Origin: Malacoraja senta
Lineage: Eukaryota
NCBI GenBank assembly: GCA_038087875.1
Contig: CM075996.1
Location: 6,450,001 to 6,514,000, forward strand
Direction of reading: 5' to 3'
Length of the DNA stretch: 64,000 nt
Within the stretch, counting starts at the first letter, position 1, and each line of letters begins with the position of its first letter. The notes below the pieces were generated by a model. That model saw nothing but the letters and a program-made list of their open reading frames with translations, was not told where the DNA came from and made no database searches. Made by a program: the position numbers and the translations under genes. Shown in pieces: positions 3,965-51,775 of this stretch.

Positions 3965-5945
3965 CTAAGAGAGGTCCAGCCGGTACACGGTGATGAACCC
4001 GTTGCCTTGGGTGACGACCAGGTTGTTGCAATTGTCGACGGTGATGACGCGTGGTTTGTGAAGGCCATCGGCGGCAGTCAGCAGCTCCTCCCTGAAGTCC
4101 CCGCCAGGCCAAAACAAGAGGATCCGGTTCCGCTCGGTAACCAGAATATTGTCGTCTTCGTCCGTGCAGATGCTGTAGGGGATTGATCGCCTGACCCACC
4201 CCATTCACGGTGACCTGATCGCAGTTGGTCAAGACACAGCCATCCCTGTCGAAGATCAGGATGCACTTCTTGCCGCAGTCGGCCACGATGAACTGCTCGA
4301 CGCTGTTGATGGCGAGGAAGAGGAAGCGCACCCCCTCGTAGCCGTACGGCTTCACCCTTTCAACCACCTGCCCATTGATGTCGTACAGTGAGAGGGAGCA
4401 CATGGAGCCCTCGCTCACCGCCACGTATTCATCCCGGTAGGCGGCAAGGGGGTAGACGGACTCAGAGCCGCGGAGCGAGAGCCTCCTCTGCATGGTCCCG
4501 TCCATGTCCAGCATGTACAGCTGGTTCCCAGACGAGCAGGCGATGATGTCGTCAAAGATGGCAACACTGCATGGATCGTCATCATCGTCCGGCAGTGAGA
4601 TAGTCGCGGTGAGGTGCCCGTAGTTGATGAAGCATTTCAGAAGGGAATTGTCCTCGTCCGCCACCACGATGATGCCGTCGTTGGAGACGCTGACGCCCGT
4701 CAGCTTCGCATCGCACTCGTCATCACCCAGCTCCGTGTTGAAGCAATGCAGATTCCACGCCCTCTGCCTGGGTTGGGGAAGGGGCGTGAAGGCCTGCGGG
4801 CTTTTCGCCGGGCTCTTGCGCGGTTTGCTTTTCGCTGGAGCGGCCGGCGCCTTGGCGGCCGATTCTTCGCCGAAGGCAATACTAAAAAGGTTGGAGTGAG
4901 ACAGTATGCTCTTGAGCGACTCGTTGACGGTCAGGCTTGGGCGGGTCTTCTTGTCATCCGGGACCCTCGGCGCTTGGAGTCCATCGATCTGTTCTTCCAC
5001 GACGGACCGCAGGCAGACTATTTCCCTCATTTTACCGGAATCCAGGACCCCCTGGGAAAATTCCCTGGTGTCCTTCGCCTTCTTGATCTTGAGCTGCAGA
5101 TCATCCCGCGCGACCTTGTACAACTCCTCCTGCTTCCTGACGTAACTGGAGAGCGTGTCCTTGATGGTGTCACCCTGTTTCATCAAGTTGTTTATGACCT
5201 CGGCCATGGTGCACTCTATCATAGACATCAGAGATCTTTCCGTCACCTTCATCCCCTCCATTGCCTGGACGATGTCGTCTTCCTGTTGGACCAGCGACTG
5301 CGTGTCAGTGTTCAGTCTCTCCATGAGATTCATCACCGTGGGTCTCGCTGTGGCCCCTGCCTTGGCCAGGGACACCTTCGAGTGCCTGGCGTGGGCGTGC
5401 GAGGAACAACTGCTGCAGATCACGCTGTTGCAGGTGATGCAGAGATCGTCCACCAGGGTTCCTGGGTGACCCTGGCAGTAGATCATCTTCTGCATCCTTG
5501 TCTCTGCCTCGCAAGGGGCGGCGCTGTGACCGGGCAGATCCTCCAGCACGTGGCGTGGGTTGGCAGTCCCGTGGGTGAGTTTGCAAGGCGGGCAGAGGCA
5601 CTTGAGGCAGGTTTTACACCGAGCCACGGCGGCAATCTCGCGGCGACCAGCTGTCGCGCACCAACTGCAGATCACCTTCTTGTTCTCGTTGCTCTTGACG
5701 ATATCCATCAGACTGTTGATGTGAAAGTTAGTCTTGAGTTTGCTGACGCCACCTCTCACGTCAAACTCGTCCCTGCACTCCGGGCACTGCACCTTCCGGT
5801 CTGACCTAACCATCTTCTCCAGGCACCCCTGGCAATAGGTGTGGGCACAAGGCAGCATCTTGGGCTGCGTGAACATACTGAGGCAGATCTTGCAGTTTAA
5901 TAGATCGTTTTGTATCTGATCCGTAATATCCCCCGACATGGCCAT
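3965..5945 (-). pseudogene. TRIM56-like: TRIM56-like E3 ligase copy 1 (RING-B1-B2-CC-NHL), 1-bp frameshift near the C-terminus (pseudogene or assembly error)
   Basis: C3HC4 RING (CKIC..LPCAHTYCQGC..CPEC), KTNFHINSLMD, two B-boxes, coiled coil and NHL-like repeats. GGGG at 4178-4181 versus GGG in the other three copies shifts the frame; the normal C-terminus (..YRLDLS*) continues in ORF 3965-4204. Confidence 0.8.
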
Positions 5946-6242
5946 GATGATACAACCTGCAACAGATCAGAGGACACAATAAAGTAGTTGAGGCTGGGAC
6001 TATCCCAACGTTTTAAGAAACAGTTAGAGGGACATATTGGCCGGTGGGACATATTGGCCGGTGTGGGGAAGTTGAGCCAAAGGGCATGATTCCACACTAT
6101 GAGATGTTTGGTCACAGAAAGTTTGCGTTTTAAAATACAAGTCTGGGAATCAAGAGTGTTTTATTGTCATATGTCCCAGATAGAATAATGAGATTCTTAC
6201 TTGTTTTTACACGCACACATACACAGAAAAAACAAACAATAA

Positions 6243-6925
6243 TACTCCACCACCGATTTTCTGGCAACTGGTGATCCAACACCTCCTTTAATCTGGACAA
6301 AATGACCAGTGCACTTGAAACCTCCTCCCAGGTCCCCCTGAAAATGAAGGGCCCTGGCTGGGTGAGGCGGCCGATATTGACCTCATTGGGACTTTCACGG
6401 CCGATTAAACTTGCCCTCCTGCGGCCAGGTTTTTTCTCATATTGCGGAAACATGGCCCTTCGGCCCACCGTGCCGACTGGCGATCACAGCTATCCTATCC
6501 ATTCACACACTTGGGACAATTTACAATTATACCAAGCCAATTAACCTGCAAACATGTACGTCTTTTGAGTGTGGGAGGAAACCGGAGTACCCGGAGAAAA
6601 CCCACGAGGGTCACGGGTAGAATGTACAAACTCTGTACAGATTCCACCCGTGGTCAGGATCAAACCCGGGTCTCTGGGGCTGTGAGGCAGCAACTCTACC
6701 GCTGTACCACCGTGCCGCCACTTACTCCAGCCCAGTCAGAGCCGGCAGACCCGTTCCCATAGATGGCTTCCAAGGCCGACTTTGCGGCCACCCGGTGGCC
6801 TAGGCGGAATGTTCCAAGACCCTTAGACTCCTCCCGGAGGCCGTGACCTCTGTTGGTCTGGCAAAACGGATCATCCGGCAAGGCTCTGGAACCAAGGGTG
6901 CCGGGAAATCGGTGGTGGACCTGTA
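6243..6925. mobile_element. Tigger/pogo-like non-autonomous DNA transposon with nested SINE, in intron 1 of every copy
   Basis: Imperfect TIRs: TCCACCACCGATTTTCTGGCA (6246-) versus the reverse complement TA-CAGGTCCACCACCGATTTCCCGGCA (-6925). Paralogs at 13302-13997, 23712-24408 and 41080-42418. Confidence 0.6.
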
Positions 6926-7851
6926 ATTGTTTAGATCAGAGCCCATTCATACCACACAACTAGGCAGCACAGAGGTGCAGCTGGAAGAGCCGCTACCTCA
7001 CAGTGCCAGAGTCCCTGGGTTCAACCCCGACCTTGGGTGATCTCTGTGTGGAGTTTGCACGTTCTCCCTGTGACGACGTAGTCAGGATCGAACCCGGAGT
7101 TCCTGGCGCTGGGAAGCAGCAACTCTACCAGGTGCACCACTGTTGAAATATTCTAAAAGATTTTTCTTTTGTATTCAGAGTAATTTCTTCAGAAAGGGCA
7201 GCACGGTGGCGCAGCGCTGTTCTGCCTCACAGCAGCAGAGACCCAGGTTCAATCCTGACGATGGGTGCTATCTGTGTGGAGTTTGCACGTGCTCCCTGTG
7301 ACCGCTTGGGTTTCCCCCGGGTACTCCGGTTTCCTCCCGCATCCCAAAGACGTGCGGGCTTGTGGATTAATCGGCCCTCTGTAAAATTGCCCCCAGTGCG
7401 TAGGGAGTGGATGAAAAATTGGGATAACATAGAACTATTGTTCAGTTCAGTTTAGAAACAGAACTAGTGTTCATGTACAGTAAAGGCTATTGTGTGCTAA
7501 TTGGGGCGGAAAGACAATACATGATTACAATCGATACATGATAAGGGAATAACGTTTAGTGCAAGGTAAAGCCAGTAAAGTCCGATCAAAGATAGTTCAA
7601 AGGTCACTAAAGAGGTAGATAATAGTTCAGGACTGCTCTCGAGTTGTGGTGAGATGATTCAGTTGCTTGATAACAGCCGGGAATAAACTATCCCTGAATC
7701 TGGAGGTGTGCGTGAATGAGTGATCGATTATCAGCATGGACTCTGTGGGCCGAAGTGGCTATTTCCATGCTGTATCTCCAACCCAAACTAAACTGCATGA
7801 GCTGTGATTCACCCCAGCTAGAAACGAAACTTAAAGAGAGATTCCAGAATC

Positions 7852-7863
7852 GAAAGTGAAAGT
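7852..7863 (+). promoter_or_regulatory. IRF-E/ISRE motif GAAAGTGAAAGT in intron 1 of copy 1
   Basis: Matches GAAANNGAAA and is identical in all four units. Copy 1 has an extra GAAACGAAACT at 7821-7831. Confidence 0.55.
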
Positions 7864-8537: not shown

Positions 8538-8680
8538 CTGAGCTGGGTTGGTGGTGAGCAAAGACGATCTTTGGAGGTGAGTGTGGAGGTCCACGTCTCT
8601 GCTGCGAGGCGAGAAAACGAACTGCGAACTGAGAGACAGAGGCGGGGCAGCCGGTCTCTCCGCCCCGCTGCCTTTTATGT
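8538..8680 (-). promoter_or_regulatory. Predicted promoter and non-coding exon 1 of TRIM copy 1
   Basis: Minus strand: CATAAAAGG TATA-like box (8671-8679), GGGGCGG GC box, CpG-rich ~110-nt exon, donor CAG|GTGAGT (8532-8540). Acceptor TGTTGCAG|G with AG at 5957-5958, just upstream of the ATG. Confidence 0.6.
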
Positions 8681-11022: not shown

Positions 11023-12999
11023 CTAAGAGAGGTCCAGCTGGTATACGGTGATTAACCCCTTGCCTTGCGTGACGACCAGGTTGTTGCAATTGTCGACGGT
11101 GATGACGCGTGGTTTGTGAAGGCCGTCGGCGGCAGTCAGCAGCTCCTCCCTGAAGTCCCCGCCTGGCCAAAACAAGAGGATCCGCTTCCGCTCGGTGACC
11201 AGAATATTGTCGTCTTTGTCCGTGCAAATGCTGTAGGGACTGATCGCCCGGCCCACTCCGTTCACGGTGACCTGGTCACAGGTGGTGAAGACACAGCCAT
11301 CCATGTCGAAGATCAGGATACACTTCTTGCCGCAGTCGGCCACGATGAATCGTTCGTCGCTGTTGATGGCGATGAAGAGGAAGCGCACCCCCTCGTAGCC
11401 GCACGGCTTCACTCTGTTGACCATCTTCCCGTTGATGTCATACAGGGAGAGGGAGCACATGGAGCCCTCACTCACCGCCACGTATTCATCCCGGTAGGCG
11501 GCGAGGTGGTAGACGGACTCGGAGCCGCGGAGCAAGAGCTTCCTCTGCATGGTCCCGTCCATGTCCAGCATGTATAGCCGGTTCCCAGACGAGCAGGCGA
11601 TGGTGTCATCAAAGATGGCAACACTGCATGGATCGTCATCGTCCGGCAGTGAGATACTTATGGTATGGTCCCCGCAGTCGATGAAGCATTTCAGAAGGGA
11701 ATTGTTTTCGTCCGCCACCACCATGATGCCGTCGTTGGAGACGCTGACGCCCGTCAGCTTCGGTTCATACTGGTTGCCACACAGCTCCGTGTCGAAGCAG
11801 TGCAGATTCAACGGCCTCTTCCTAGGTTGTGGAAGGGGCGCGACGGCCAGTGGGCTTTTCGCTGGGCTCTTGCGCGGCTTGCTTTTCGCAGGTGTGGCCA
11901 ATGCCTTGGCGGCCGAGTCTTCGCCGAAGGTGACGCTGAAAAGGTTGGAGTGAGACAGCATGCTCTTGAGCGACTCATTGACGGTCAGGCTGGGGCGGGT
12001 CTTCTTGTCATCCGGGACCCTCGGCGCTTGGAGTCCATCCATCTGGTCTTCCATGACGGACCGCAGGCAGACTATTTCCCTCATTTTACCGGAATCCAGG
12101 ACCTCCTCGGAAAATCCCCTGGTGTACCTTGCCTTCCTGATCTTGAGCTGCAGATCATCCTGCGTGACCTTGTACAACTCTACCTGCTTCCTGACGTAAC
12201 TGGAGAGCGTGTCCTTGATGGTGTCACCCTGTTTTATCAAGTTGTTTATGACCTCGACCAGGGTGCACTCTATCATAGACATCAGAGATCTTTCCGTCGC
12301 CTTCATCCCCTCCATTGCCTGGACGATGTCGTTTTCCTGTTGGAGTAGCGACTGTGTGTCAGTCTTCAGTCTCTCCATGAGATTCATCACCGTAGGTCTC
12401 TCTGTGGCCCCTGCCTTGGCCAGGGACACCTTTGAGTGCTTGGCGTGGGCGTGCGAGGAACAACTGCTGCAGATCATGCTGTTGCAGGTGTTACAGAGAT
12501 AATCCACCAGGGTTCCTGGGTGGCCCTGGCAGTAGATCATCTTCTGCATCTTTGTCTCTGCCTCGCAAGGGCCGGCGACTTGACCGGGCAGATCCTCCAG
12601 CATGTGGCGTGGGTTAGTATACCTGTGGTTGAGCGTGCAAAGCGGGCAGAAGCACTTGAGGCAGGTTTTACACTGAGCCACGGCGGCAATCTCGCTGAGA
12701 CCAGCTGTCGCGCACCAACTGCAGATCACCTTCTCGTTCTCCTTGCTCTTGAAGATATCCATCAGACTGTTGATGTGAAAGTTAGTCTTGAGTTTGCTGA
12801 CGCCACCTCTCACGTTAAACTCTTCCCTGCACTCCGGGCACTGCACCTTCCGGTCTGACCTAACCATCTTCTCCAGGCACCCCTGGCAGTAGGTGTGGGC
12901 ACAAGGCAGCATCTTGGGCTGTGTGAACCTACTGAGGCAGATCTTGCAGTTTAATAGATCGTTTTGTATCAGATCCGTAATATCCCACGACATGGCCAT
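11023..12999 (-). CDS. TRIM56-like: TRIM56-like E3 ubiquitin ligase copy 2, intact 658 aa, single coding exon
   Basis: Uninterrupted ORF with RING, two B-boxes, coiled coil and NHL-like repeats. Acceptor AG at 13014-13015. Confidence 0.9.
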   Translation of the reverse strand: MAMSWDITDLIQNDLLNCKICLSRFTQPKMLPCAHTYCQGCLEKMVRSDRKVQCPECREEFNVRGGVSKLKTNFHINSLMDIFKSKENEKVICSWCATAGLSEIAAVAQCKTCLKCFCPLCTLNHRYTNPRHMLEDLPGQVAGPCEAETKMQKMIYCQGHPGTLVDYLCNTCNSMICSSCSSHAHAKHSKVSLAKAGATERPTVMNLMERLKTDTQSLLQQENDIVQAMEGMKATERSLMSMIECTLVEVINNLIKQGDTIKDTLSSYVRKQVELYKVTQDDLQLKIRKARYTRGFSEEVLDSGKMREIVCLRSVMEDQMDGLQAPRVPDDKKTRPSLTVNESLKSMLSHSNLFSVTFGEDSAAKALATPAKSKPRKSPAKSPLAVAPLPQPRKRPLNLHCFDTELCGNQYEPKLTGVSVSNDGIMVVADENNSLLKCFIDCGDHTISISLPDDDDPCSVAIFDDTIACSSGNRLYMLDMDGTMQRKLLLRGSESVYHLAAYRDEYVAVSEGSMCSLSLYDINGKMVNRVKPCGYEGVRFLFIAINSDERFIVADCGKKCILIFDMDGCVFTTCDQVTVNGVGRAISPYSICTDKDDNILVTERKRILLFWPGGDFREELLTAADGLHKPRVITVDNCNNLVVTQGKGLITVYQLDLS

Positions 13000-14887: not shown

Positions 14888-14899
14888 GAAAGTGAAAGT
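14888..14899 (+). promoter_or_regulatory. IRF-E/ISRE motif, copy 2 intron 1
   Basis: GAAAGTGAAAGT in the same context as in copy 1. Confidence 0.55.
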
Positions 14900-15457: not shown

Positions 15458-15600
15458 CTGAGCTGGGGTTGTGGTGAGCAAAGACGATCTTTGGTGGTGA
15501 GTGTGGAGGTCCACGTCTCTGCTGCGAGGCGAGAAAATGAACTGCGAACTGAGAGACAGAGGCGGTGCAGCCGGTCTCTCCGCCCCGCTGCCCTTTATGT
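15458..15600 (-). promoter_or_regulatory. Predicted promoter and non-coding exon 1 of TRIM copy 2
   Basis: Donor CAG|GTAAGT (15452-15460), GC box, CATAAAGGG at ~15591-15599. Confidence 0.6.
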
Positions 15601-19507: not shown

Positions 19508-19707
19508 NNNNNNNNNNNNNNNNNNNNNNNNNNNNNNNNNNNNNNNNNNNNNNNNNNNNNNNNNNNNNNNNNNNNNNNNNNNNNNNNNNNNNNNNNNNNN
19601 NNNNNNNNNNNNNNNNNNNNNNNNNNNNNNNNNNNNNNNNNNNNNNNNNNNNNNNNNNNNNNNNNNNNNNNNNNNNNNNNNNNNNNNNNNNNNNNNNNNN
19701 NNNNNNN
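19508..19707. other. Assembly gap (200 N)
   Basis: Run of N, flanked on both sides by GTAAATGGTGGG. Confidence 0.99.
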
Positions 19708-26593: not shown

Positions 26594-26605
26594 GAAAGTG
26601 AAAGT
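26594..26605 (+). promoter_or_regulatory. IRF-E/ISRE motif, copy 3 intron 1
   Basis: GAAAGTGAAAGT in the same context. Confidence 0.55.
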
Positions 26606-27157: not shown

Positions 27158-27300
27158 CTGAGCTGGGGTGGTGGTGAGCAAAGACGATCTTTGGTGGTGA
27201 GTGTGGAGGTCCACGTCTCTGCTGCGAGGCGAGAAAATGAACTGCGAACTGAGAGACAGAGGCGGTGCAGCCGGTCTCTCCGCCCCGCTGCCCTCTATGT
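27158..27300 (-). promoter_or_regulatory. Predicted promoter and non-coding exon 1 of TRIM copy 3 (TATA-like box degenerate)
   Basis: Donor CAG|GTGAGT (27152-27160). The TATA-like box reads CATAGAGGG. Confidence 0.55.
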
Positions 27301-28926: not shown

Positions 28927-28928
28927 TA

Positions 28929-35432: not shown

Positions 35433-35445
35433 CAAGAAGTGGGAG

Positions 35446-36306: not shown

Positions 36307-37328
36307 TTTCCCCCCAGGATGGAAGGGATTACTATTATTATTTTTTTCTTTTTCATATTAAAGCATCAGTTTTATTACCTAACTAAAGTTATGCCTGAAT
36401 GCTTTACCTTTTCACTCATCCATGGTCAATCCATTCAGTGTGTGACGCCTGGACTCGTATCCGGCGTGAAGTCACAGAGCTTTAAAATCTTCACGTAGTT
36501 ACTCACGTGACTCCGAAGTAAAATAGTAAGATTAAACGAGAACTTACCAGTTTGAAGTTTGATCTTGATTTTATGAGGAGTTACGATGAGCGATTACGTG
36601 CCCACCGCTCCCTCCCTCATATTATCAAGGTCATCTGGTAGTTTCCAGTTCTCAACCTTACTATCCTCAGGTAATTTCTCTTTTCTGTGATTTCACACCG
36701 CTGCTTTGAAGATTGACGCGCATGCGGACTTACGTCCCTTCATCATGTAATCGCTCATCGTAACTCCTCATACAATCAAGATCAGACTTCAAACTGGTAA
36801 GTTCTCGTTTAATCTTACTATTCATTGCCACAGAAGGCAGGGTTGATGGCCGAAATATATGATGCCAAAATATACTAATCTAATCTACCTGTACATGTTC
36901 CATATCCCTCAATTTCCTGCATATCCACATGCCTGCCCATGTCACTTAAAGCACTGAGTCCAATCTGACCACCGATTACCTGTTCAAACTTGTTCATGTT
37001 ATCCCAAATTCTCATCCACTGCCTACACACTAGGGGCAATCAACAGAGGGCCGATTAACCTACAAACCTGCACGTCTTTGGGATGTGGGAGGAAAACCTC
37101 GTGGTCGCAGGGAGAATGTGCAAACTCCATACCCGCTGCGCCACAGGAGGCCGCCAATGGGTATTTTCAAGGCAGAGACAGATAGATTCCTGATTAGAAT
37201 GGGTGTCAGGGGTGATGGGGAGAAGGCATGAGAAGGAGGTTAGATGGGAATGAGAGATCAGCCATGACTGAATGGCGGAATGGACTTGATGGGCCGAGTG
37301 GCTTAGTTGTGCTCCTGTCACCGATGCC

Positions 37329-39305: not shown

Positions 39306-39341
39306 GATGACACAACCTGCAACAGATCAGAGGACACAATG

Positions 39342-40813
39342 TCAAGTCAAGTCACATTTATTTATATAGCACATTTAAAAAACAACTCTCGTTGGCCAAA
39401 GTGCTTTACATTTGTTATAAGAATAGCATAAACAAAACAAACTACATACATATATACATGTAGCCCTCACTCAGAGGACGTCAGGAAAGGCTTGGGAGTA
39501 TAGATAAGTTTTTAGTCTTGACTTAAAAGAGTCGATGGAGGGGGCAGTTCTGATGGGAAAGGGGATGCTGTTCCAGTCTAGGGGCTGCAACCGCAAAGGT
39601 GCGGTCGCCCCTGAGCTTATGCCTAGACCGTGGGATATTCAGCAACCCCAAGTCGGCCGATCTGAGGGGCCTGGAGGTGGAGTGGTGGGTGAGAAGACTT
39701 TTTATGTAGGTGGGGGCAAGCCCATTGAGGGCTTTGTAGACATGGAGGAGGATCTTGAAGTTTATACGGAACCGCACAGGGAGCCAGCGGAGAGAGGCCA
39801 GGATCGGGGTGATGTGGTCCCTTTTTCGGGTGCCCGTCAGGAGTCTCGCTGCGGCGTTTTGGACCAGTTGCAGGCGGGACAGGGAAGATTGCCTGATGCC
39901 AGTGTAAAGGGAGTTGCAGTAATCTAGGCAGGAGGAGATGAATGTGTGGATGATCTTTTCGAGGTCATCAAACTGGAGGAATTGTTTTATTTTAGCTATC
40001 GTCCGAAGCTGAAAGAAGCTAGCTTTTACCACGGCATTGACTTGTTTGTCAAATTTCAGTGTGAGTGAAATATCACGCCAAGGTTTATGACGTGAGGTTT
40101 GATTAGTGGGGTAAGGCTTCCAAGGCTGCCTATCATTTTGATTGAGTCCGAGGGGCCGAGAAGGATGACCTCAGACTTACTCTCGTTTAGTTGGAGGAAG
40201 TTCTGGGCCATCCAACACTTTATATCCTCGAGGCAGTGGGTAAGGTTAAGCAGATTTGATTGGTTTTTGGGCTTCAGGGGGAGATAGAGTTGTGTATCGT
40301 CTGCGTAGCAATGGAAGGAAATGCCGTGCCTTTCAATGACTTGGCCTAAGGGGAGCATATACAGGGAGAAGAGAATGGGGCCAAGGATGGAACCTTGTGG
40401 AACCCCACAGCAGAGATTAGCTGGGGAGGAGAAAGAGTTGCCTATGTTAGTCGAGAAACTCTTACCTTTGAGGTAGGAGATGAACCAGCTCAGGGCAGTG
40501 CCATCAAGACCAACCCCATACCGGAGACGGTCAATTAGGATGGTGTGGTCGACAGTATCAAATGCTGCGCTGAGGTCAAGAAGGAGCAGAATTGCACAGT
40601 CGCCGGAGTCAACGGTGAGCAGTAGGTCATTGTGTACCTTCAAGGCAGACTCTGTGCTATGGTGAGCCCTGAAATCTGATTGGAAAGTTTCCAAGATAGT
40701 GTTTTGGTGAAGGTAAGGTATAAGTTGACTTAAAATTACCTTTTCAAGGGCTTTTGAGAGGAAAGGCAGTTTAGAAATGGGTCTGTAGTTGCTTGGCAAG
40801 GTGGGGTCGAGGT
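39342..40813 (-). mobile_element. 5'-truncated L2 LINE at the 3' end of copy-4 intron 1
   Basis: RT motifs NYRPISKLPFLSK, LDLSAAFDTV, GVPQGSILGP, YADD; (GACTT)n tail; TSD ATG. Empty site GGACACAATGAGGTAG in copy 2. Confidence 0.92.
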
Positions 40814-41570
40814 ATGAGGTAGTTGAGGCTGGGACAATCCCAACGTTTTAAGAAACAGTTAGAGGGACTAGTGTAGCTGTGACATATTGGCCAGTGTGGG
40901 CAAGTTGAGCCAAAGGGCCTGTTTCCACACTATGAGAAGTTTGGTCACAGAAAGTTTGGGTTTTAAAATACAAGTCTGAGAATCAAGAATGTTTTATTGT
41001 CATATGTCCTAGATAGAATAATGAGATTCTTACTTGTTTTTACACGCACACATACATACACAGAAAAAACAAACAATAATACTCCACCACCGATTTTCTG
41101 GCAACTGGTGATCCAGCACCTCCTTTAATCCGGACAAAATGACCAGAGTGCACTTGAAACCTCCTCCCGGAAGTCCCCCCGAAAATGAAGCGCCTTGGCT
41201 GGGTGAGGCGGCCGATATCTACCTCATTGGGACTGTCACGGCCGATTAAACTTGCCCTCCTGCGGCTGTTTTTTTCTCATATAGATTCATTGTGGAAACA
41301 CGGCCCTTTGGCCCACCGCTCCGACTGCCGATCCCAGCTATCCTATCCCTTCACACACTAGGAACAATTTACAATTATACCAAGCCAATTAACCTGCAAA
41401 CATGTACGTCTTTGGAGTGTGGGAGGAAACCGGAGCATCCTGAGAAAACCCACGCTGGTCACGGGGAGAACGTACAAACTTCGCACAGACTGCACCCGTG
41501 GTCAGGATCGAACCCGGGTCTCTGGGGCTGTGAGGCAGCAACTCTACCGCTGCGCCACTGTGCCGCCACT

Positions 41571-42212
41571 TGAGAAAGTTTGATAGAATTAAAAGTTATA
41601 AAATGGATTCAGCTGTAGATTTAGAAGCAAAGAAACACTTTTCATCTTTCTCCTAATACACTAGCAAGGCTAGCAGAAAAGGCTTTCACCTTTCTCCTAT
41701 TACACTAACAAGGCTAACAAAGATGTTTTCACTATTCTTCCATAACACTAGCAAGATAACACTGCAACATCATTAATTTTTTCCTTTATGATATAAACAC
41801 CAGAAGCATGTTCAGACAACGGTTCTTTCCCTCTGTTCTACTGATTGCAATGTATAAACAATAGATCAACAAGGTCAAAAAACAAGAGTGCTTGAATCTG
41901 AAAAAAATAGCTTCTTTAGCATAACCATGTATGGGCTAACCTTTCCTATCTCGGAAGAACCTGTCAATCCTAACAAGCAAGAGGCTGTACAATGCTCTGT
42001 AAGATAAAGTATTGCTGAATCGTTGATTATTGGGGTATAAATATATCTAATTGAACATTACCCCTTTGTGTGGGGATAGTGTGAACCTATAGTCTGTATA
42101 TTACACACTGTAAGAGTTTACAGCCACACCCGCCTGGCGAAATAAAGATTTTACTACTTGATTATGAATTTTATTGTGTTTTTGTCTGTTTAAAGTGAAA
42201 CGAACCTTAACA
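41571..42212 (+). mobile_element. Solo LTR (642 bp)
   Basis: TG...CA termini, 4-bp TSD CACT (41567-41570 / 42213-42216), TATAAA at 42036, AATAAA at 42141. Empty site GCCGCCACTTACTCC in copies 1 and 3. Confidence 0.85.
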
Positions 42213-43570
42213 CACTTACTCCAGCCCAGTCAGAGCCGGCAGACCCATTCCCATAGCTGGCTTCCTAGGCCGACTTTTCGCCCCCCGCCGGCCGAGGTAG
42301 AATGTTCCAAGACCGTTAGACTCCTTTCGGAGGCCGTGACCTCTGTTGGTCCGGCAAAACAGATCATCCGGCAAGGCTCTGGAAGCAAGGGTGCCGGGAA
42401 ATCGGTGATGGACCTGTAATTGTTTAGATCAGAGCCCATTCATTCCACACAACTAGGCAGCACAGAGGTGCAGCTGGAAGAGCCGCTGCCTCACAGTGCC
42501 AGAGTCCCTGGGTTCAATCCCGACCTCGGGTGATCTCTGTGTGGAGTTTGCAAGTTCTCCCTATGACCACATAGTCGGGATCGAACCCGGAGTTCCTGGC
42601 GCTGTGAGGCAGCAACTCTACCAGGTGCACCACTGTTGAAATATTCTAAAAGATTTTCCTTTTGTATTCAGAGGAGTAATTTCTTCAGAGGTTATAATGT
42701 ACAAAGGGCAGCATGGTGGTGCAGCACTGTTCTGCCACAGCGGCAGAGACCCAGGTTCAATCCTGACGATGGGTGCTTTGTGTGGAGTTTGCTCGTGCTC
42801 CCTGTGACCGCGTGGGTTTCCTCCGGGTACTCCGGTTTCCTCCCGCATCCCACAGACATGCGGGTTTTTTGGGTTAATCGGCCATTTGTAAAATTGCCCC
42901 CAGTGTGTAGGGAGTGGATGAGAAATTGGGATAACATGGAACTATTGTTCAGTTCAGTCAGTTTAGTTCAGTTCATGTACAGTAAAAAGCTTTTGTGTGC
43001 TAACCAGTCAGCGGAAATACATGATTACAATCGAGCCATTTACAGTGTATGGATACATGATAAGTGAATAACGTTTAGTGCAAGGTAAAGTCAGTAAAGT
43101 CAGATCAAAGAGGGTCACTAAAGAGGTAGATGGTAGTTCAGGACTGCTCTCGAGTTGTGGTAAGATGATTCAGTTGCCTGATAACATAGAAACATAAAAA
43201 ATAGGTGCAGGAGGAAGCCATTTGGCCCTTCGAGCCAGCTCCGCCATTCATTGCGATCATGGCTGATCGTCCCCAATCAATAACCCGTGCCTGCCTTTTC
43301 CCCATATCCCATGATTCCACTAGCCCCATGAGCTCTAACTAACTCTCTCTTAAATTCATCCGGTGATTTGGCCTCCACTGCCCTCTGGCGGGGAATTCCA
43401 CAAATTCACAACTCTCTGGGTGAACAAGTATTTTCTCACCTCAGTCTTTAATGACCTCCCCTTTATTCGAAGACTGTGGCCCCTGGTTCTGGACTCGCCC
43501 AACATTGGGAACATTTTTCCTGCATCTAACTTGTCCAGTCCTTTTATAATTTTATAAGATCGCCCCTCAT

Positions 43571-46500
43571 AGAAACATAGAAAATAGGTGCAAGAGTAGG
43601 CCATTCGGCCCTTCGAGCCTGCACCGCCATTCAATATGATCATGGCTGATCATCCAACTCAGTATCCTGTACCTGCCTTCTCTCTATACCCCCTGATCCC
43701 TTTAGCCACAAGGGCCACATCTAACTCCCTCTTAAATATAGCCAATGAACTGACCTCAACTACTTTCTGTGGCAGAGAATTCCACAGATTCACCACTCTC
43801 TGTGTGAAAATTATTTTTCTCATCTCGGTCCTAAAAGACTTCCCCCTTATCCTTAAACTGTGACCCCTTGCTCTGGACTTCCCCAACATCGGGAACAATC
43901 TTCCTGCATCTAGCCGGTCCAACCCCTTAAGAATTTTGTAAGTTTCTATAAGATCCCCCCTCAATCTTCTAAATTCTAGCGAGTACAAGCCGAGTCTATC
44001 CAGTCTTTCTTCATATGAAAGTCCTGCCATCCCAGGAATCAGTCTGGTGAACCTTCTCTGTACACCCTCTAAGGTAAGAATGTCTTTCCTCAGATTAGGA
44101 GACCAAAACTGTACACTATACTCCAGGTGTGGTCTCACCAAGGCCCTGTACAACTGCAGCAGAACCTCCCTGCTGCTATACTCAAATCCTTTTGCTATGA
44201 ATGCTAACATACCATTCGCTTTCTTCACTGCCTGCTGCAGCTGCATGCCAATTTCAATGACTGGTGTACCATGACACCCAGGTCTCGTTGCATCTCCCCT
44301 TTTCCTAATCGTCCACCATTCAGATAATAGTCTACTTTCCTGTTCTTGCCACCAAAGTGGATAACCTCACATTTATCCACATTATACTGCATCTGCCCAG
44401 TCACGCATCCTATCCAAGTCACCTTGCAGCCTCCTAGCATCCTCCTCAGAGCTAACACTGCCCCCCAGCTTTGTGTCATCCGCAAACTTGGAGATGTTGC
44501 ATTCAATTCCCTCGTCCAAATCATTAATATATATTGTAAATAGCTGGGGTCCCAGCACTGAGCCTTGCGGTACCCCACTAGTCACTGCCTGCCATTCTGA
44601 AAAGGACCCGTTTACTCCTACTCTTTGCTTCCTGTCTGCCAGCCAGTTCTCTATCCACATCAATACTGAACCCCCAATACCGTGTGCTTTAAGTTTGCAT
44701 ACTAATCTCTTATGTGGGACCTTGTCGAAAGCCTTCTGAAAGTCCACATATAACACATCCACTGGTTCTCCCTTATCCACTCTACTAGTTACATCCTCGA
44801 AAAATTCTATAAGATTCGTCAGACATGATTTACCTTTCATAAATCCATGCTGACTTTCTCCAATGATTTCACCACTTTCCAAATGTGCTGCTATCCCATC
44901 TTTAATAACCGACTCTAGCATTTTCCCCACTACCGATGTTAGACTAACTGGTCTGTAATTCCCCATTTTCTCTCTCCTTCCCTTTTTAAAAAGTGGGGTT
45001 ACATTAGCTACCCTCCAATCATCAGGAACTACTCCAGAATCTAAAGAGTTTTGAAAAATTATCACTAATGCATCCACTATTTCTGGGGCTACTTCCTTAA
45101 GCACTCTGGGATGCAGCCTATCTGGCCCTGGGGATTTATCGGCCTTTAATCCATTCAATTTACCTAACACCACTTCCCGACTAACCTGGTTTTCACTCAG
45201 TTCCTCCATCTCATTTGACCCCCGGTCCCCTGCTATTTCCGGCAGATTATTTATGTCTTCCTTAGTGAAGACAGAACCAAAGTAGTTATTCAATTGGTTT
45301 GCCATGTCCTTGTTCCCCATGATCAATTCACCTGTTTCTGACTGCAAGGGACTTACATTTGTTTTAACTAATCTTTTTCTCTTCACATATCTATAAAAGC
45401 TTTTGCAGTTAGTTTTTATGTTCCCTGCCAGTTTTCTTTCATAATTTATTTTCCCTTTCCTAATTAAGCCCTTTGTCCTCCTCTGCTGGACTCCGAATTT
45501 CTCCCAGTCCTCTGGTAGGCTGCTTTTTCTGGCTAATTTGCATGCTTCATCTTTTGTTTTGATACTATCCCTGATTTCCCTTTTATCCACGGATGCACTA
45601 CCTTCCCTGATTTATTCTTTTGCCAAACTGGGATGAACAATTGTTGTAGTTCATCCATGCGGTCTTTAAATGCCTTCCATTGCATATCCACCGTCAACCC
45701 TTTAAGAATCAATTGCCAGTCTATCTTGGCCAATTCACGTCTCATACCCTCAAAGTTACCTTTCTTTAAGTTCACAACCCTTGTTTCTGAATTAACTATG
45801 TCACTCTCCATCCTAATGAAGAACTCAACCATATTATGATCACCCTTGCCCAAGGGGCCACGCACAACAAGACTGCTAACTAACCCTTCCTCATTACTCA
45901 ATACCCAGTCTAGAATAGCCTGCTCTCTCGTTGGTTCCTCTACATGTTGGTTTACAAAACTATCCCGCATACATTCCAAGAAATCCTCTTCCTCAGCACC
46001 CCTGCCAATTTGATTCAACCAATCTATATATAGATTGAAGTCACCCATTATAACTGTTTTACCTTTGTTGCACGCATTTCTAATTTCCTGTTTGATGCCA
46101 TCCCCAACTCCACTACTACTGTTAGGTGGCCTGTACACAACTCCCACTAGCGTTTTCTGCCCCTTAGTGTTTCGCAGCTCTACCCATATCGATTCCACAT
46201 CCTCCAAGCTAATGTCCTTCCTTTCTATTGCGTTAATCTCCTCTCTAACCAGCAACGCTACCCCACCTCCTTTTCCTTTCTGTCTATCCCCCCTGAATAT
46301 TGAATATCCCTGGATGTTCAGCTCCCAGCCTTGGTCACCCTGGAGCCATGTCTCCGTGATCCCAACTATATCATATTCATTAATAAATATCTGCACATTC
46401 AACTCATCCACCTTATTACGAATGCTCCTTGCATTGAGACACAAAGCCTTCAGGCTTGTTTTTACAACACTCTTAGGCAGTGAAGAAAGCAAATGGTATG

Positions 46501-48458
46501 TTAGCATTCATAGCAAAAGGATTTGAGTATAAGAGCAGGGAGGTTATACTGCAGTTGTACAGTGTCTTGGTGAGACCACACCTGGAGTATTGCGTACAGT
46601 TTTGGTCTCCTAATCTGAGGAAAGACATTCTTGCCATAGAGGGAGTACAGAGAAGATTCACCAGACTGATTCCTGGTATGGCAGGACTTTCATATGAGGA
46701 AAGACTGGATAGACTTGGCTTGTACACGTTGGAATTCAGAAGACTGAGGGGGGATCTTATAGAAACTTACAAAATTCTTAAGGGGTTGGACAGGCTAGAT
46801 GCAGGAAGATTATTCCTGATGTTGGGGAAGTCCAGAACTAGGAGTCACAGTTTAAGGATAAGAGGGAAGACTTTTAGGACCGAGACGAGGAAATCATTTT
46901 TTACACAGAGTGGTGAATCTGTGGAATTCTCTGCCACAGAAGGTAGTTGAGGCCAGTTCATTGGCTATATTTAAGAGGGAGTTAGATGTGGCCCTTGTGG
47001 CTAAAGGGGTCAGGGGGTATGGAGAGAAGGCAGGGATGGGATACCGAGTTGGATGATCAGCCATGATCATATCAAATGGCGGTGCAGGCTCGAAGGGCCG
47101 AATGGCCTACTCCTGCACCTATTTTCTACGTTTCTACCCCTTATACAATTATGTTGAAAAGTGGCCCTTTTTGATTTTTGCCCTGGATTTGTCTGCCTGC
47201 CACTTTTACTTTTCACCTTGTTACCTATTGCTTCTACCCTCATTTTACACCCATCTGTCTCTCTGCTCATGCTCCCATCCCCCTGCCACATTAGTTTAAA
47301 TCCTCCCCAACAGCACTAGCAAACACTCCCCCAAGGCTGGTTCCATTCCAGCCCAGGTGCAGACCGTCCTGTTTGTACTGGTCCCACCTCCCCCAGAACT
47401 GGTTCCAATTCCCTAGAAATTTGAATCCCTCCCCCTTGCACCATTTTTCAAGGCCCGTATTCATCTGAAATATCTTCCTATTTCTACTCTGACTAGCACG
47501 TGGCACTGGTAGTAATCCAGAGATTATTACCTTTGAGGTCCTACTTTTAAGTTTATCTCCTAGCACCCTAAATTCACCTTGTAGGACCTCATCCCGTTTT
47601 TTTACCTATATCGTTGGTGCCAATGTGCACCACGACAACTGACCCTTGCACCAGGGAGGCAACATACCATCCTGGAGTCTCGTTTGCGGCCGCAGAAACG
47701 CCTATCCCCCTTCCAATTGAATCCCCTATTACTATAGCCCTTCCACTCTTTTTCCTCCCCTCCTGTGCTGCAGAGCCACCCACGGTGCCATGAACTTGGC
47801 TGCTGCTGCCTTCCCCTGATGAGCAATCTCCCCTAACAGTATCCAAAATGGTATACCTGTTTAGGAGGGAGATGACCGCAGGGGACTCCTGCACTACATG
47901 CCTACTGCTATGCTGGCTAGTGGCCACCCGTTCCATTTCTGTCCACTTAACTTTTACCTGCGGTGTGGCCAACTCACTGTACGTGCTATTCACGACTTTC
48001 TCAGCATCGTGGATGCTCCAGTATGAATCCAACCGCAGCTCCAACTGTTCAATGCGGTCTGCCAGGAGCTGCAGCTGGACACACTTCCTGCGCACGTAGT
48101 CACCAGGGACACCGACAATATCCCTGATCTCCCACATGTTGCAGGATGAGCAATCCACGAAACCGATCTCAACTGACATGGCTTACCCCCACATTAAATC
48201 AACTCACTCCCACTATAAAAATCTTAATCCTTTAAACTGTACCTTTACTAAAAAGCACTGTACCCTTAACTCACTGTACCCTTAACTCACTGAACCCTTA
48301 ACTAAAAAGTACGAACAGAAAGCAGAAATACAAACCTGGGGTTACTCCCAAACAGCTGCTTCCTCTAGTCCGCTTCCACCAAACAGCGGCTTCCTCCGGA
48401 CCACTTCTTTTGAAGTGTGATGGAACGTTGCAGAGTGGGCGCTCCAACTGCTCCTGGG
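43571..48458 (-). mobile_element. Essentially full-length CR1 LINE nested in the outer CR1
   Basis: TSD CCTCAT (43565-43570 / 48459-48464). ORF1 ~47291-48179 has CxxC motifs and an SGNH esterase (VIGDS, HIGTND, DGLH). ORF2 has an APE endonuclease (45533-46470) and RT (43659-45590) with frameshifts. Confidence 0.92.
46476..47136 (+). mobile_element. CR1 3' fragment inserted antisense within the nested CR1
   Basis: KKANGMLAFIAKG..VRPHLEYCVQFWSP on the + strand, ending in a TTTCTA tail. It interrupts the ORF2 5' region. Confidence 0.88.
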
Positions 48459-49268
48459 CCTCATCCTTCTAAACTCCAGTGAATACGATCCTAGTCTTTT
48501 CAATCTTTCCTCATATGACAGTCCCGCCATCCCAGGGATCAATCTTGTGAACCTACTCTGCACTGCCTCAGTCACAAGGATGTCCTTCCTCAAATTAGGA
48601 GACCAAAACTGGACGCAATACTCCAGATGTGGTCTTACCAGAGCCCTATACAACTGCAGGAGAACCTCTCTACTCCTATACTGAAATCCTCTTGTTACGA
48701 AGGCCAACATTCCATTAGCTTTCTTCACTGCCTGCTGTACCTGTAAGCCAACTTTCAATGACCGGTGTACAAGGACACCCAGGTCGCGCTGTACCTCCCC
48801 CTTACCTAACCTAACCCCATTGAGATAATAATCTGCCCCCTTGTTTTTGCCACCAAAGTGGATAACCTCACATTTATCTATATTATACTGCATCTGCCAC
48901 GCATCTGCCCACTCACTCAACCTGTCCAGGTCACCCTGCAACCTCCTAACATCCTCTTCACAGTTCACACTGCCACCCAACTTTGTGTCATCCGCAAACT
49001 TGCTAGTGTTGCTCCTAATTCCCTCTTCCAAATCATTAATATATATGGTAAACAGTTGCAGCCCCAACACCGAGCCTTGCGGCACTCCACTCGCCACTGC
49101 CTGCCATTCTGAAAAGGACCCGTTCACTCCTACTCTTTGCTTCCTGTCTGCCAACCAATTTTATATCCACGTCAACACCCTACCCCCAATACCATGTGCT
49201 CTAATTTTAGTCACCAGCCTCCCGTGCGGGACCTTATCAAAGGCTTTCTGAAAGTCTAGAAACACTAC

Positions 49269-49631
49269 TTTGTATCTAGATAGACGACAGATGGCGCAAT
49301 GGGCTAAGTGTTCGGCTGGCAACCGGAAGGTAGCCGGTTCGAATCCCGCTTGGAGTGCATACTGTCGTTGTGTCCTTGGGCAAGACACTTCACCCACCTT
49401 TGCCTGCGTGTGAATGTGTGTGAATGTGTGTGAGTGATTGGTGGTGGTCGGAGGGGCCGTAGGCGCAGATTAGCAGCCACGCTTCCGTCAGTCTGCCCCA
49501 GGGCAGCTGTGGCTACAGAAGTAGCTCACCACCACCGAGTGTGACTGAGGAGTGAATGAATAATGCGATGTAAAGCGCCTTGAGTATTAGAAAGGCGCTA
49601 TATAAATCCAATCCATTATTATTATTATTAT
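49269..49631 (+). mobile_element. tRNA-head SINE with L2-type tail
   Basis: A box TGGCGCAATGG, B box GGTTCGAATCC, GTGTCCTTGGGCAAGACAC core, tail TGTAAAGCGCCTTGAG..AAAGGCGCTATATAAAT(ATT)n, short TSD TAC. Confidence 0.85.
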
Positions 49632-51119
49632 TACATCCACTGGCTCCCCTTCATCCATTTTAGTCACATCCTCAAAAAAATCCAGAAGATTAGTCAAGCA
49701 TGATTTTCCTTTCATAAATCCATGCTGACTTGGACTAATCCTTTTACTGCTATCCAATGTCCCAAAGATGCTGGAGTCTTTAATAATTGACTCCACCATC
49801 TTTCCCACCACCGAATTCAGGCTAACTGGTCTGTAATTCCCCGTTTTCTCTCTCACTGCTTCCTTGAAAAGTGGGATAACATTAGCTATCTTCCAATCCA
49901 CAGGAACTGATCCTGAATCTATTGAACATTGGAAAATGATCACCAATGCATCCACTATTTCTAGAGCCACCTCCCTGAGGACCCTTGTATGCAGTCCATC
50001 AGGCCCCGGGGATTTATCATCCTTCAGTCCCATTAGCCTACCCAATACTATTTCTCGCCTAATGAAAATTTATTTCAGTTCCTCGACCCCCTTAGATCCT
50101 CTGTCCTCCAGTACTTCTGGGAGATTGTTTGTGTCTTCCTTAGTGAAGACAGATCCGAAGTACCTGTTGAACTCTTCTGCCATTTCCTTGATCCCCATAA
50201 TAATTTCACCCGTGTCTGCCTTCAAGGGACCCACATTTAACTTTGTTACTCTTTTTCCCTTAACATATCTAAAGAAGCTTTTACTGTCCTTCTTTATATT
50301 CCTGGCCAGCTTCCCTTCGTACTTCATCTTTTCAGCCCGTATTGCCCGTTTTGTTTCCTTCTGTTGTCCTATGAAAGTTTCCCAATCCTTTGGCTTCCGG
50401 CTACTCTTTGCTGTGTTATACATCTTTTCTTTTCGTTTTATTCTGTCCCTAATTCTCTTGTCAGCCACGGTTGCCTCCTACTCCCCTTAGAATCTTTCTT
50501 CCTTTTTCAAATGAAATGATCCTGTGTCTTCCGGATTATGCCCAGAAATTCCTGCCATTGCTGTTCCACCGTCATTCCTGCTAGTATAACTTTCCAGTCT
50601 ACCTTGGCCAGCTCCTCTCTCATGCCTTCATGATCCCCTTTGTTCAACTGCATCACGGACACTTCCGATTTAACCTTCTCCTTCTCAAATTGCAGATTAA
50701 AACTAATCATATTATGATCACTACCTCCAAGCGGTTCCTTTACCTCGAGTTTTCTTATCAAATTTGGTTCATTGGACAAAACTAAATCCAGAATTGCCTT
50801 TTCTCTGGTCGGCTCCATTACAAGCTGCTCTAAGAATCCATTTCGGAGGCACTCTACAAACTCTCTTGGGGTCCTGAACCAACCTGATTTTCCCAGTCTA
50901 CTTGCATATTGAAATCCCCCATCACCACAGTGGCATTACCTTTGTTACATGCCAATTTTAACTCCTGCTGCAACTTACACCCTACATCCAGGCTACTATT
51001 TGGGGGTTGTAGATAACACCAATTAGTGTCGTCTTGCCTTTGCAATAACACCTGGGAAGAAACTGTCCTTGAACTGACAATGAATCTCTCTCACTTAAAG
51101 AGTGAGAGATTCCAGAATC

Positions 51120-51131
51120 GAAAGTGAAAGT
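51120..51131 (+). promoter_or_regulatory. IRF-E/ISRE motif, copy 4 intron 1
   Basis: GAAAGTGAAAGT in the same context. Confidence 0.55.
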
Positions 51132-51629
51132 AATCACACGGCGACATTGTTGGTAAACAGCCCCTTTAAATGTACAGTGGTTTAAAACGCTTCTACCAGC
51201 GAACAGCCGAGGGAATGAGAGTCATTGCCCGGGAGAGGTGACACTTGGTTCCCAAAGTAAGTCACGCAAAGACCCCGTTTCATCTATGAACCTTGTGTGT
51301 TAACATACTCCCCTCCCATCCCTGCTCTCTCCTCTCTTCTTCTCCCCCCCTACCATCTCCTCCCCTCCCCTCCCTGCTCTCTCCTCTCTTCTCCTCCCCT
51401 CCCCTCTTTTCTCCTCCCCTCCCATCTCCTCCCCTACCCCCCCTTTCCCTCCTCTCCTCTTCCCTCCCGTCCCAACCAGAGACGGGGCAACATCTCAGCG
51501 CCGACTTCCTAGCCCACCGCAGTGAGGCGGGTGTCCCGGCGCCAGGGGATTAAAACACAAACACGCTCCTACATCCTATCTCAATCTCACTCCCTCCCTC
51601 TGAGGCCGCCACAGCAGCATCTCACTCAC

Positions 51630-51775
51630 CTGAGCTGGGGTGGTGGTGAGCAAAGACGATCTTTGGTGGCGAGCGTGGAGGTCCACGTCTCTGCTGCAAC
51701 GCGAGACAATGAACAGAGGCGGGGCGAGAGACAGAGGCGGGGCAGCCGGTCTCTCCGCCCCGCTGCCCTTTATCT
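51630..51775 (-). promoter_or_regulatory. Predicted promoter and non-coding exon 1 of TRIM copy 4
   Basis: Donor CAG|GTGAGT (51624-51632), GC box, GATAAAGGG at ~51766-51774. About 12.3 kb from the coding exon because of TE insertions. Confidence 0.55.

What the first reader, a model, noticed from the sequence alone, without database searches (positions are those of the whole stretch)
3965..51775. Lineage-expanded tandem array of TRIM56-like RING-B1-B2-CC-NHL ligases, a candidate antiviral effector cluster
Seen: four highly similar, co-oriented ~658-aa genes, each duplicated with its promoter, non-coding exon and intron; no filamin domain; one coding exon. Known: mammalian TRIM56 is a single-copy, interferon-inducible antiviral ligase (STING/cGAS/TRIF signalling, RNA binding via an NHL-like domain). 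It has a single coding exon and a similar RING region (LPCLHTYC, CPECRE, KTNF), whereas TRIM2/3/71 are multi-exon with filamin. Inference: this is a cartilaginous-fish expansion of NHL-type restriction factors, analogous to B30.2-based finTRIM/TRIM5 expansions but using a different recognition domain.
Basis: partly seen in the sequence, partly recalled or inferred. Interest (0 to 1): 0.72.

Follow-up and report, generated by a model that had tools for sequence, protein, structure and literature searches.

The report
Skate-expanded TRIM56 sister-gene array
A skate carries at least four tandem copies (two broken in this assembly) of a ubiquitin-ligase gene that other sharks and rays appear to have once; it is an overlooked ancient sister of the mammalian antiviral gene TRIM56, and the skate copies differ mostly in their target-binding domain, as expected of a small immune-recognition family.

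Summary
The array is real: four minus-strand RING-B1-B2-coiled coil-NHL genes, 91-95% identical, each with its own upstream block. (1) Only g2 and g4 have intact 658-aa frames; g1 and g3 carry 1-nt frameshifts, not checked against reads. (2) The expansion is skate-specific: three annotated skates have 4-8 models, 18 other elasmobranchs gave one gene each. (3) Despite the database label they are probably not TRIM56 orthologues. They belong to a sister clade (B) that coexists with TRIM56 proper (A) in a lizard and a newt; rooted AU tests reject grouping with A (p 0.002-0.004), unrooted tests do not. For an immune role: a perfect IRF element in predicted intron 1 of every copy, and propellers about twice as diverged relative to the RBCC as in single-copy orthologues, most so in the top-face loops, with a mosaic break before the propeller. 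Against the finTRIM analogy: no positive selection among the four copies (NHL omega 0.32), and the top loops are net acidic, so RNA binding is doubtful. Best reading: an interferon-responsive ligase family under birth-and-death, with a shared scaffold and diversified propellers. Function and expression are untested.

The parts
3965..5945 (-). g1 coding exon; one extra base within 4175-4187 shifts the frame near codon 588 (out-of-frame stop at 3954)
7852..7863 (+). perfect IRF-binding consensus (GAAAGTGAAAGT) in predicted intron 1 of g1
8538..8671 (-). g1 predicted GC-box promoter (8658-8671) and non-coding exon 1 ending at the donor at 8537; start site not determined
   Evidence: prediction from signals only
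11023..12999 (-). g2 coding exon, intact, 658 aa RING-B1-B2-CC-linker-NHL
14888..14899 (+). IRF element in predicted intron 1 of g2
15458..15591 (-). g2 predicted GC box and non-coding exon 1 (donor at 15457)
19508..19707 (.). 200-N assembly gap between g2 and g3; further copies could be hidden here
21431..23409 (-). g3 coding exon; one base missing within 22565-22578 shifts the frame near codon 280 (305-aa product without NHL)
26594..26605 (+). IRF element in predicted intron 1 of g3
27158..27291 (-). g3 predicted GC box and non-coding exon 1 (donor at 27157)
37329..39305 (-). g4 coding exon, intact, 658 aa; AlphaFold2 model shows a six-bladed propeller at residues 396-655
39317..51629 (-). 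g4 predicted intron 1, 12.3 kb, swollen by copy-specific LINE insertions (about 39341-40813 and 43186-51092)
51120..51131 (+). IRF element in predicted intron 1 of g4
51630..51766 (-). g4 predicted GC box and non-coding exon 1 (donor at 51629)
1217..3244 (.). inter-unit spacer homologous to the spacers upstream of g2 (16640-18351) and g3 (29021-31081); suggests a further unit left of the window
   Evidence: 90.6-91.7% identity

Best explanation
A skate-specific tandem family of an old TRIM56 sister gene (clade B) that works like TRIM56. SHOWN: each intact copy encodes RING, two B-boxes, a coiled coil, a low-confidence linker and a six-bladed NHL propeller; the family multiplied only in skates; the 5' half of the unit (promoter, intron, RBCC) is more homogenised than the propeller half; residues fixed in all single-copy elasmobranch proteins became variable in skates mostly in the top-face loops. 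INFERRED from TRIM biology (recalled): IRF factors bind the intron-1 element and raise transcription during an interferon response; the proteins dimerise through the coiled coil; the propeller top face binds a target (more likely a protein than RNA, as its loops are net acidic); clustering on the target activates RING ubiquitin transfer, which degrades the target or amplifies innate signalling. Near-identical RBCC halves with several propeller types give a small repertoire of specificities. Copies are gained, converted and lost (birth and death), which accounts for frameshifted copies.
For: Copy number: Amblyraja 8 models (5 of them 642-658 aa), Leucoraja 4, Rhinoraja 4, each species' models listed on a contig of the same length; 18 of 18 other elasmobranch species returned gave one gene, duplicate entries being 99.7-100% identical. 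Skate copies form one clade (SH-aLRT 100, quick tree). IRF consensus: 4 matches, one per copy at the same place about 680 bp into predicted intron 1 (measured in g1), 0.14 expected per 64 kb, 0 of 100 shuffles reached 4; the four descend from one site and count as one observation. NHL/RBCC divergence among 18 skate proteins is 1.96 times that among 18 single-copy proteins (site bootstrap 1.62-2.39); top loops 1.37 times the rest of the NHL (1.03-1.85). ML tree length of the skate crown relative to non-skates 0.59 for NHL and 0.26 for RBCC, while the skate stem is alike (0.084 and 0.088), so the shift follows duplication. Sites invariant in 18 single-copy proteins but polymorphic in skates: top loops 7 of 31, rest of NHL 4 of 59 (p 0.043), RBCC 4 of 74 (p 0.014). 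Mosaicism: informative sites support g1g3|g2g4 in 31 of 32 cases from codon 384 on but 10 of 25 before (Fisher p 2e-6; break chosen after seeing the data). dS is 0.03-0.09 in the RBCC against 0.11-0.19 in the NHL, a gap also seen at non-CpG fourfold sites (0.035 on 33 sites, 0.093 on 41). NHL omega 0.32, below 1 at p 1e-8, and intact zinc ligands show a functional history. Human TRIM56 is a moderately interferon-inducible antiviral ligase whose NHL-like domain binds RNA, TRIF and a viral protease (PMC11768893, section 2 and passages); the NHL top face is the binding site (PMC9634614, passages).
Against: No positive selection among the four window copies: M2a vs M1a p 0.45 whole gene, 0.65 NHL, 0.51 RBCC (four sequences, low power). 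The NHL has lower omega (0.32) than the RBCC (0.69, not different from 1, p 0.10), so its greater divergence can be explained by older ancestry alone. The excess is uneven: NHL/RBCC ratio 2.2 and 2.5 in Amblyraja and Leucoraja, 1.29 in the window, 0.95 in Rhinoraja; in the window the top loops (0.148) are no more diverged than the whole NHL (0.151). NHL vs RBCC for invariant-site polymorphism is not significant (p 0.18). Site tests treat related sequences as independent and loop classes come from one predicted model. 2 of 4 copies are frameshifted and the g3 branch has omega 0.65-0.70 (vs background p 0.07). The IRF site is intronic and its pattern was chosen after seeing it. No expression, induction or binding data were obtained, and none of the papers seen addresses clade B.
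Confidence: 0.5

Rival explanations
1. Largely neutral birth-and-death. Unequal crossing-over in a repeat-rich region multiplied one functional gene; redundancy relaxed constraint; conversion spreading from the 5' end homogenised the RBCC half; propeller differences are old drift, and the extra copies add dosage at most.
For: 2 of 4 copies frameshifted; 3 of 8 Amblyraja models partial; RBCC omega not different from 1 and no site-model signal; Rhinoraja shows no NHL excess; units are full of SINE/LINE copies.
Against: Four or more copies in each of four skates, across two families, against one in 18 of 18 other species; propeller types shared between Amblyraja and Leucoraja in the NHL tree (fast tree without supports); top-loop enrichment of changes at otherwise invariant sites; strong purifying selection in the NHL.
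Confidence: 0.27
2. Functional, diversified family with a non-immune role (for example protein or mRNA turnover in germ line, muscle or development, as for TRIM2, 3, 32 and 71).
For: Clade B has no functional data; fold neighbours are TRIM71, TRIM2/3, Thin and Brat; the single-copy gene is conserved across elasmobranchs with a strongly constrained propeller (NHL/RBCC 0.73), which suits a host ligand.
Against: Perfect IRF element in all copies; nearest characterised relative is TRIM56; TRIM56 proper also appears duplicated in lacertid lizards, a pattern typical of defence genes.
Confidence: 0.13
3. They are direct co-orthologues of mammalian TRIM56 (the A/B split being a later, tetrapod-side duplication, or chondrichthyans having kept A) and act as viral-RNA-binding restriction factors.
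For: Human TRIM56 RING is the best PDB hit of g4; NCBI names them TRIM56-like; without outgroups the A + tetrapod-B grouping is not rejected (p 0.19 and 0.14); no chondrichthyan clade A protein was found.
Against: With six outgroups clade B has 100/99 support and A+chondrichthyans, A+tetrapod B and A+all bony vertebrates are each rejected (p 0.002, 0.003, 0.004; LG+G4); human RING scores 99.7-111.7 bits on 3 clade A proteins and 67.6-92 on 4 clade B proteins; top loops hold 8-11 basic and 12-17 acidic residues in the four copies.
Confidence: 0.08
4. The array is an assembly artefact (haplotype or read duplication).
For: A 200-N gap lies inside the array; no read depth was obtained.
Against: Copies differ by 5-9%, carry copy-specific transposon insertions, and three other skates have annotated multi-copy sets.
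Confidence: 0.02

Closest known systems
Mammalian TRIM56 (RNF109; clade A here)
   Same: RING-B1-B2-CC, disordered linker, NHL-like six-bladed propeller, no filamin (PMC11768893 section 2; PMC2533329 passages). Sister clade in all trees; best PDB hit for the RING.
   Different: Separate clade that coexists with clade B in Pogona (32.5% identity) and Pleurodeles (27.9%); shorter protein (658 vs 755 aa); net acidic top loops; multi-copy. No full-length mammalian TRIM56 sequence was retrieved, so its placement in A rests on RING scores, NCBI names and a Python model named after PAI-1 (SERPINE1 as neighbour of TRIM56 is recalled).
Single-copy 'TRIM56-like' of sharks, rays, chimaera, bichirs, sturgeon, bonefish, salamanders and Pogona (clade B)
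   Same: Direct orthologues: 47-65% identity in elasmobranchs, 43% chimaera, 29-37% bony vertebrates; shared propeller motif across blades 2-4.
   Different: One gene per species in 18 of 18 non-skate elasmobranchs; there the propeller is more conserved than the RBCC (ratio 0.73), while in Amblyraja, Leucoraja and the window it is the more diverged half.
TRIM-NHL class C-VII (TRIM2, TRIM3, TRIM32, TRIM71; Brat, Thin, Mei-P26)
   Same: NHL fold: top Foldseek hits TRIM71, TRIM2, TRIM3, Thin, Brat, TM-score by target about 0.72-0.79 for NHL-only chains.
   Different: About 20% identity in the propeller; no filamin domain detected; single coding exon.
finTRIM/btr/hltr and TRIM5 expansions (RBCC-B30.2)
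   Same: Lineage-specific tandem TRIM family with variable C-terminal recognition domain and recombination (PMC3137616, abstract and passages).
   Different: NHL instead of B30.2; 4-8 copies instead of large families; positive selection not detected here.

Membership tests
TRIM/RBCC ubiquitin ligases | N-terminal C3HC4 RING with 8 zinc ligands | tested here: met
   Pfam PF00097 E 4e-10 to 5e-10 in g2 and g4; ligands intact in 4 of 4 copies
TRIM/RBCC ubiquitin ligases | B-box(es) followed by a coiled coil | tested here: met
   PF00643 at 152-193; B1 ligand pattern conserved; helices 193-323 in the model
TRIM/RBCC ubiquitin ligases | E3 ligase activity | not testable with these tools
   inferred from the intact RING
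TRIM-NHL (C-VII) | six-bladed NHL propeller at the C terminus | tested here: met
   24 propeller strands at 396-655, pLDDT mostly 80-94; Foldseek E about 1e-18 to TRIM71/TRIM2 NHL; g2 and g4 only
TRIM2/3/71-type | filamin domain between coiled coil and NHL | tested here: not met
   no filamin hit at E up to 1; residues 325-392 pLDDT below 50
TRIM56 orthologues | groups with amniote/amphibian/lungfish TRIM56 to the exclusion of paralogues | tested here: not met
   clade B 100/99; A+chondrichthyans rejected p 0.002 with outgroups; unrooted test of the later-duplication alternative not rejected
TRIM56 orthologues | conserved synteny with the TRIM56 locus | not testable with these tools
   no genome held; no neighbouring gene recognised in 52600-64000
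TRIM56 orthologues | RNA binding through the NHL-like domain | tested here: inconclusive
   top loops net acidic by residue count; no electrostatics or binding test, and no comparison with the TRIM56 surface
Interferon-stimulated antiviral TRIMs | IRF/ISRE control element | tested here: met
   perfect IRF consensus (pattern recalled) in predicted intron 1 of 4 of 4 copies; binding not shown
Interferon-stimulated antiviral TRIMs | induction by interferon or virus, and restriction of a virus | not testable with these tools
   no expression data obtained
finTRIM/TRIM5-type expansions | B30.2 (PRY-SPRY) C-terminal domain | tested here: not met
   no such Pfam hit
finTRIM/TRIM5-type expansions | positive selection on the recognition domain | tested here: inconclusive
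   M2a vs M1a p 0.65 for NHL on four copies; protein-level enrichment of change in top loops across 19 skate proteins p 0.014-0.043

The most novel reading that the evidence does not exclude
Jawed vertebrates had two TRIM56-type genes from the start; the second (clade B, apparently absent from humans and mislabelled TRIM56 in databases) is an interferon-driven defence ligase, and skates turned it into a variable receptor family in which a common RBCC scaffold, kept alike by gene conversion, carries propellers with different binding faces that recognise different pathogen proteins: an NHL-based counterpart of finTRIM/TRIM5 in a vertebrate.
Probability: 0.3. Interest if true: 0.72.

Novelty: new variant of a known kind. 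Interest (0 to 1): 0.5.

Why it matters
Expanded vertebrate antiviral TRIM families described in the papers seen use B30.2 domains; a family diversifying an NHL propeller would add a second recognition module and point to a pathogen pressure peculiar to skates. Independently of function, the A/B split means many non-mammalian 'TRIM56' annotations name a different gene, which matters for dating the TRIM56-STING/cGAS/TRIF link. The natural series (one copy in rays, 4-8 in skates, a handful of top-face substitutions such as E431Q, P498H, K414N) makes specificity directly testable.

Tried and rejected
No whole genome is held, so synteny and full copy number could not be examined. The one read-laying run returned no data, so the frameshifts, read depth and splicing stay unchecked. 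Search for a chondrichthyan clade A protein: lungfish NHL query gave 2 hits of 1043 candidates, Pogona A query 52 of 6657, none a cartilaginous fish and none a mammal; these word-limited searches do not show absence. Site models found no positive selection. CpG hypermutability as sole cause of the higher NHL dS was considered (80 vs 48 CpG per kb) and is not favoured, since the gap is also seen at non-CpG sites, on few sites. The careful 65-row tree did not finish; the quick tree is cited. Rows dropped: Amb7 (508 aa) from the p-distance and tree-length analyses and the 215-aa Amblyraja model from all analyses; the non-homologous tail of the sturgeon protein P0051; only 8 of 52 clade A hits-or-representatives were used and 5; 15 then 6 of the unnamed distant hits served as outgroups. 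ORFs of 52600-64000 showed no recognisable neighbour gene by eye (not scanned against Pfam). Literature: 10 searches showed no paper on this array or on a second TRIM56 clade; 'TRIM56 + cartilaginous fish + expansion' and 'TRIM56 + SERPINE1 + synteny' gave 0, 'TRIM56-like' 1 (oyster; listing only), 'TRIM56 + shark + interferon' 1 (unrelated listing). Subscription journals and supplements were not searched. Earlier scan notes: nothing by sequence or place, three unrelated NHL notes by words.
Full report
Observation. The window holds four minus-strand copies of one gene, with starts at 5945, 12999, 23409 and 39305 and homologous stops at 3965, 11023, 21431 and 37329. Coding identity is 91.2-94.6% over the six pairs, and the homology extends over several kilobases of flank. 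g2 and g4 encode 658 aa. Both indels lie in short homopolymer runs and could be assembly errors; no read data were obtained. The g3 branch has the highest terminal omega (0.70 free-ratio; 0.65 vs 0.36 background, p 0.07; downstream of the break 0.48, p 0.06 against 1), while g1 has 0.20. That fits a young or spurious break in g1 and possibly some relaxation in g3, without settling either.

Gene anatomy. Each copy has a splice acceptor 11-14 nt before the ATG, and an upstream block with a GC box and a consensus donor, giving predicted introns of about 2.6, 2.4, 3.7 and 12.3 kb. The g4 intron is enlarged by LINE insertions. A perfect IRF consensus, GAAAGTGAAAGT (pattern recalled), lies in predicted intron 1 of all four copies and nowhere else in the window; 0.14 matches are expected by chance. 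The four sites descend from one, so this is a single modest observation. A 200-N gap between g2 and g3 and a spacer at 1217-3244 that matches the spacers upstream of g2 and g3 suggest more copies.

Protein. Pfam finds RING, B-box and NHL and no filamin or B30.2. All 24 zinc ligands are intact in the four copies. AlphaFold2 on a 20-sequence alignment gives a long coiled coil, a low-confidence linker (325-392) and 24 propeller strands at 396-655, whose closest solved folds are the NHL domains of TRIM71, TRIM2, TRIM3, Thin and Brat.

Who has it. The closest proteins are from skates (Amblyraja and Leucoraja 82-87%, Rhinoraja 80%), so the window is most likely a rajid skate (inference). Amblyraja has 8 models (three partial), Leucoraja 4 and Rhinoraja 4. 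Six other batoids and twelve sharks gave one gene each; repeated entries are 99.7-100% identical. This rests on annotated proteins and on a search that scored only 7999 candidates. The 19 skate proteins form one clade; Rhinoraja copies group together, Amblyraja and Leucoraja copies interleave, and the window copies form the pairs g1-g3 and g2-g4. The expansion is therefore a skate one, with continuing turnover.

Not quite TRIM56. The HMMER search and name look-up revealed two groups labelled TRIM56 or TRIM56-like. Clade A has lungfish, caecilian, newt, lizards, snakes and turtles. Clade B has chimaera, sharks, rays, skates, bichirs, sturgeon, bonefish, salamanders and a second Pogona gene. Pogona and Pleurodeles have both, at 32.5% and 27.9% identity. 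The human TRIM56 RING scores 99.7-111.7 bits on three A proteins and 67.6-92 on four B proteins, and one Python A model is named after PAI-1, whose gene neighbours human TRIM56 (recalled). With six outgroups clade B has 100/99 support and three alternative groupings are rejected (p 0.002-0.004, LG+G4, outgroup branch itself weak at 79/70). Without outgroups the best trees agree (86/84 and 91/92) but a later duplication on the tetrapod side is not rejected (p 0.19, 0.14). I put about 80% on B being a paralogue older than the split of cartilaginous and bony fishes. No full-length mammalian sequence and no synteny were available. PMC3503706 (passages) places TRIM56 in subfamily C with TRIM2/3/32/45/71; PMC2533329 (passages) reports TRIM56 as possibly lost in chick and fish; PMC10445537 and PMC12784883 (passages) did not discuss it; none of these passages mentions a second clade.

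How the copies evolve. Among the four window copies omega is 0.41 overall, 0.32 in the NHL and 0.69 in the RBCC, and M2a does not beat M1a (p 0.45, 0.65, 0.51). So the finTRIM-type signature (PMC3137616, abstract and passages) is not shown, on a test with little power. Synonymous divergence is 0.03-0.09 in the RBCC, like the promoter and intron (0.025-0.085), but 0.11-0.19 in the NHL, nearer the 3' flank (0.06-0.15). Informative sites conflict before codon 384 (10 of 25 for g1g3|g2g4) and agree after it (31 of 32), which indicates exchange between copies in the 5' half. Across 18 skate proteins the propeller is 1.96 times more diverged relative to the RBCC than across 18 single-copy proteins (1.62-2.39); tree lengths agree (0.59 vs 0.26) and the skate stem shows no such shift. 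Of sites invariant in all single-copy proteins, 7 of 31 in top-face loops are polymorphic in skates, against 4 of 59 elsewhere in the propeller and 4 of 74 in the RBCC. The effect is strong in Amblyraja and Leucoraja (2.2, 2.5), weak in the window (1.29) and absent in Rhinoraja (0.95), and these tests ignore relatedness. The top face is the binding site of NHL domains, and the RNA-binding TRIM71 face is strongly basic (PMC9634614, passages); here the top loops hold 8-11 basic and 12-17 acidic residues, which points to a protein ligand.

Mechanism and rivals. The most likely reading (0.5) is an interferon-responsive ligase family that works like TRIM56 (PMC11768893, section 2 and passages): IRF-driven expression, coiled-coil dimers, target capture on the propeller, RING-dependent ubiquitination, with a homogenised scaffold and several propeller types. 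The architecture, expansion, mosaicism and divergence pattern are shown; induction, ligand and antiviral effect are inferred. Rivals are neutral birth-and-death with relaxed constraint (0.27), a non-immune role (0.13), direct TRIM56 co-orthology with RNA binding (0.08) and artefact (0.02).

Novelty. The proteins of related skates are already annotated as TRIM56-like, and lineage-specific TRIM expansions are a known kind. Ten literature searches showed no description of the skate array or of the A/B split, within an open-access library only. TRIM56 proper also appears duplicated in lacertid lizards, so duplication recurs in this family. The scan's earlier notes held nothing on this sequence or place. 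Verdict: new variant of a known kind, interest 0.5; 0.72 if the variable-receptor reading (probability 0.3) proves true.

Noticed in passing
window 31600-36310: Retroelement with a tyrosine-recombinase ORF (35356-36306, Pfam PF00589 E 5e-8), read by eye as DIRS-like, interrupted at 33354-34245 by a LINE piece 92.7% identical to the insertion in the g4 intron.
   Followed up: partly
window 43186-51092 and 60400-63490: Several LINE copies with reverse-transcriptase and endonuclease ORFs (PF00078, PF03372), nested in the g4 intron and beyond the array.
   Followed up: partly
window 20253-20532: About 280-bp hairpin element: arms 20294-20381/20403-20490 (88 nt, 92% complementary) and 20253-20297/20488-20532; MITE-like, between g2 and g3.
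   Followed up: partly
window 56470-57100: GC-rich stretch beside a pyrimidine-rich repeat, a possible promoter of a neighbouring gene.
   Followed up: no
proteins P0200/P0216, P0201/P0205, P0219/P0234, P0209-P0213: TRIM56 proper (clade A) occurs as pairs 83-90% identical on contigs of the same length in Podarcis raffonei, Zootoca and Podarcis lilfordi, and as several entries in Podarcis muralis: a parallel duplication in lacertid lizards.
   Followed up: partly
proteins P0044 and P0061: Unnamed second clade B proteins: a 396-aa chimaera-like form lacking B2 and coiled coil (70% to Callorhinchus over 240 aa) and a 610-aa salamander-like form (50% to Ambystoma); clade B may be duplicated in these lineages too.
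   Followed up: no
protein P0223: A Python TRIM56 sequence is annotated as plasminogen activator inhibitor 1 isoform X1, probably a merged gene model with its neighbour.
   Followed up: no
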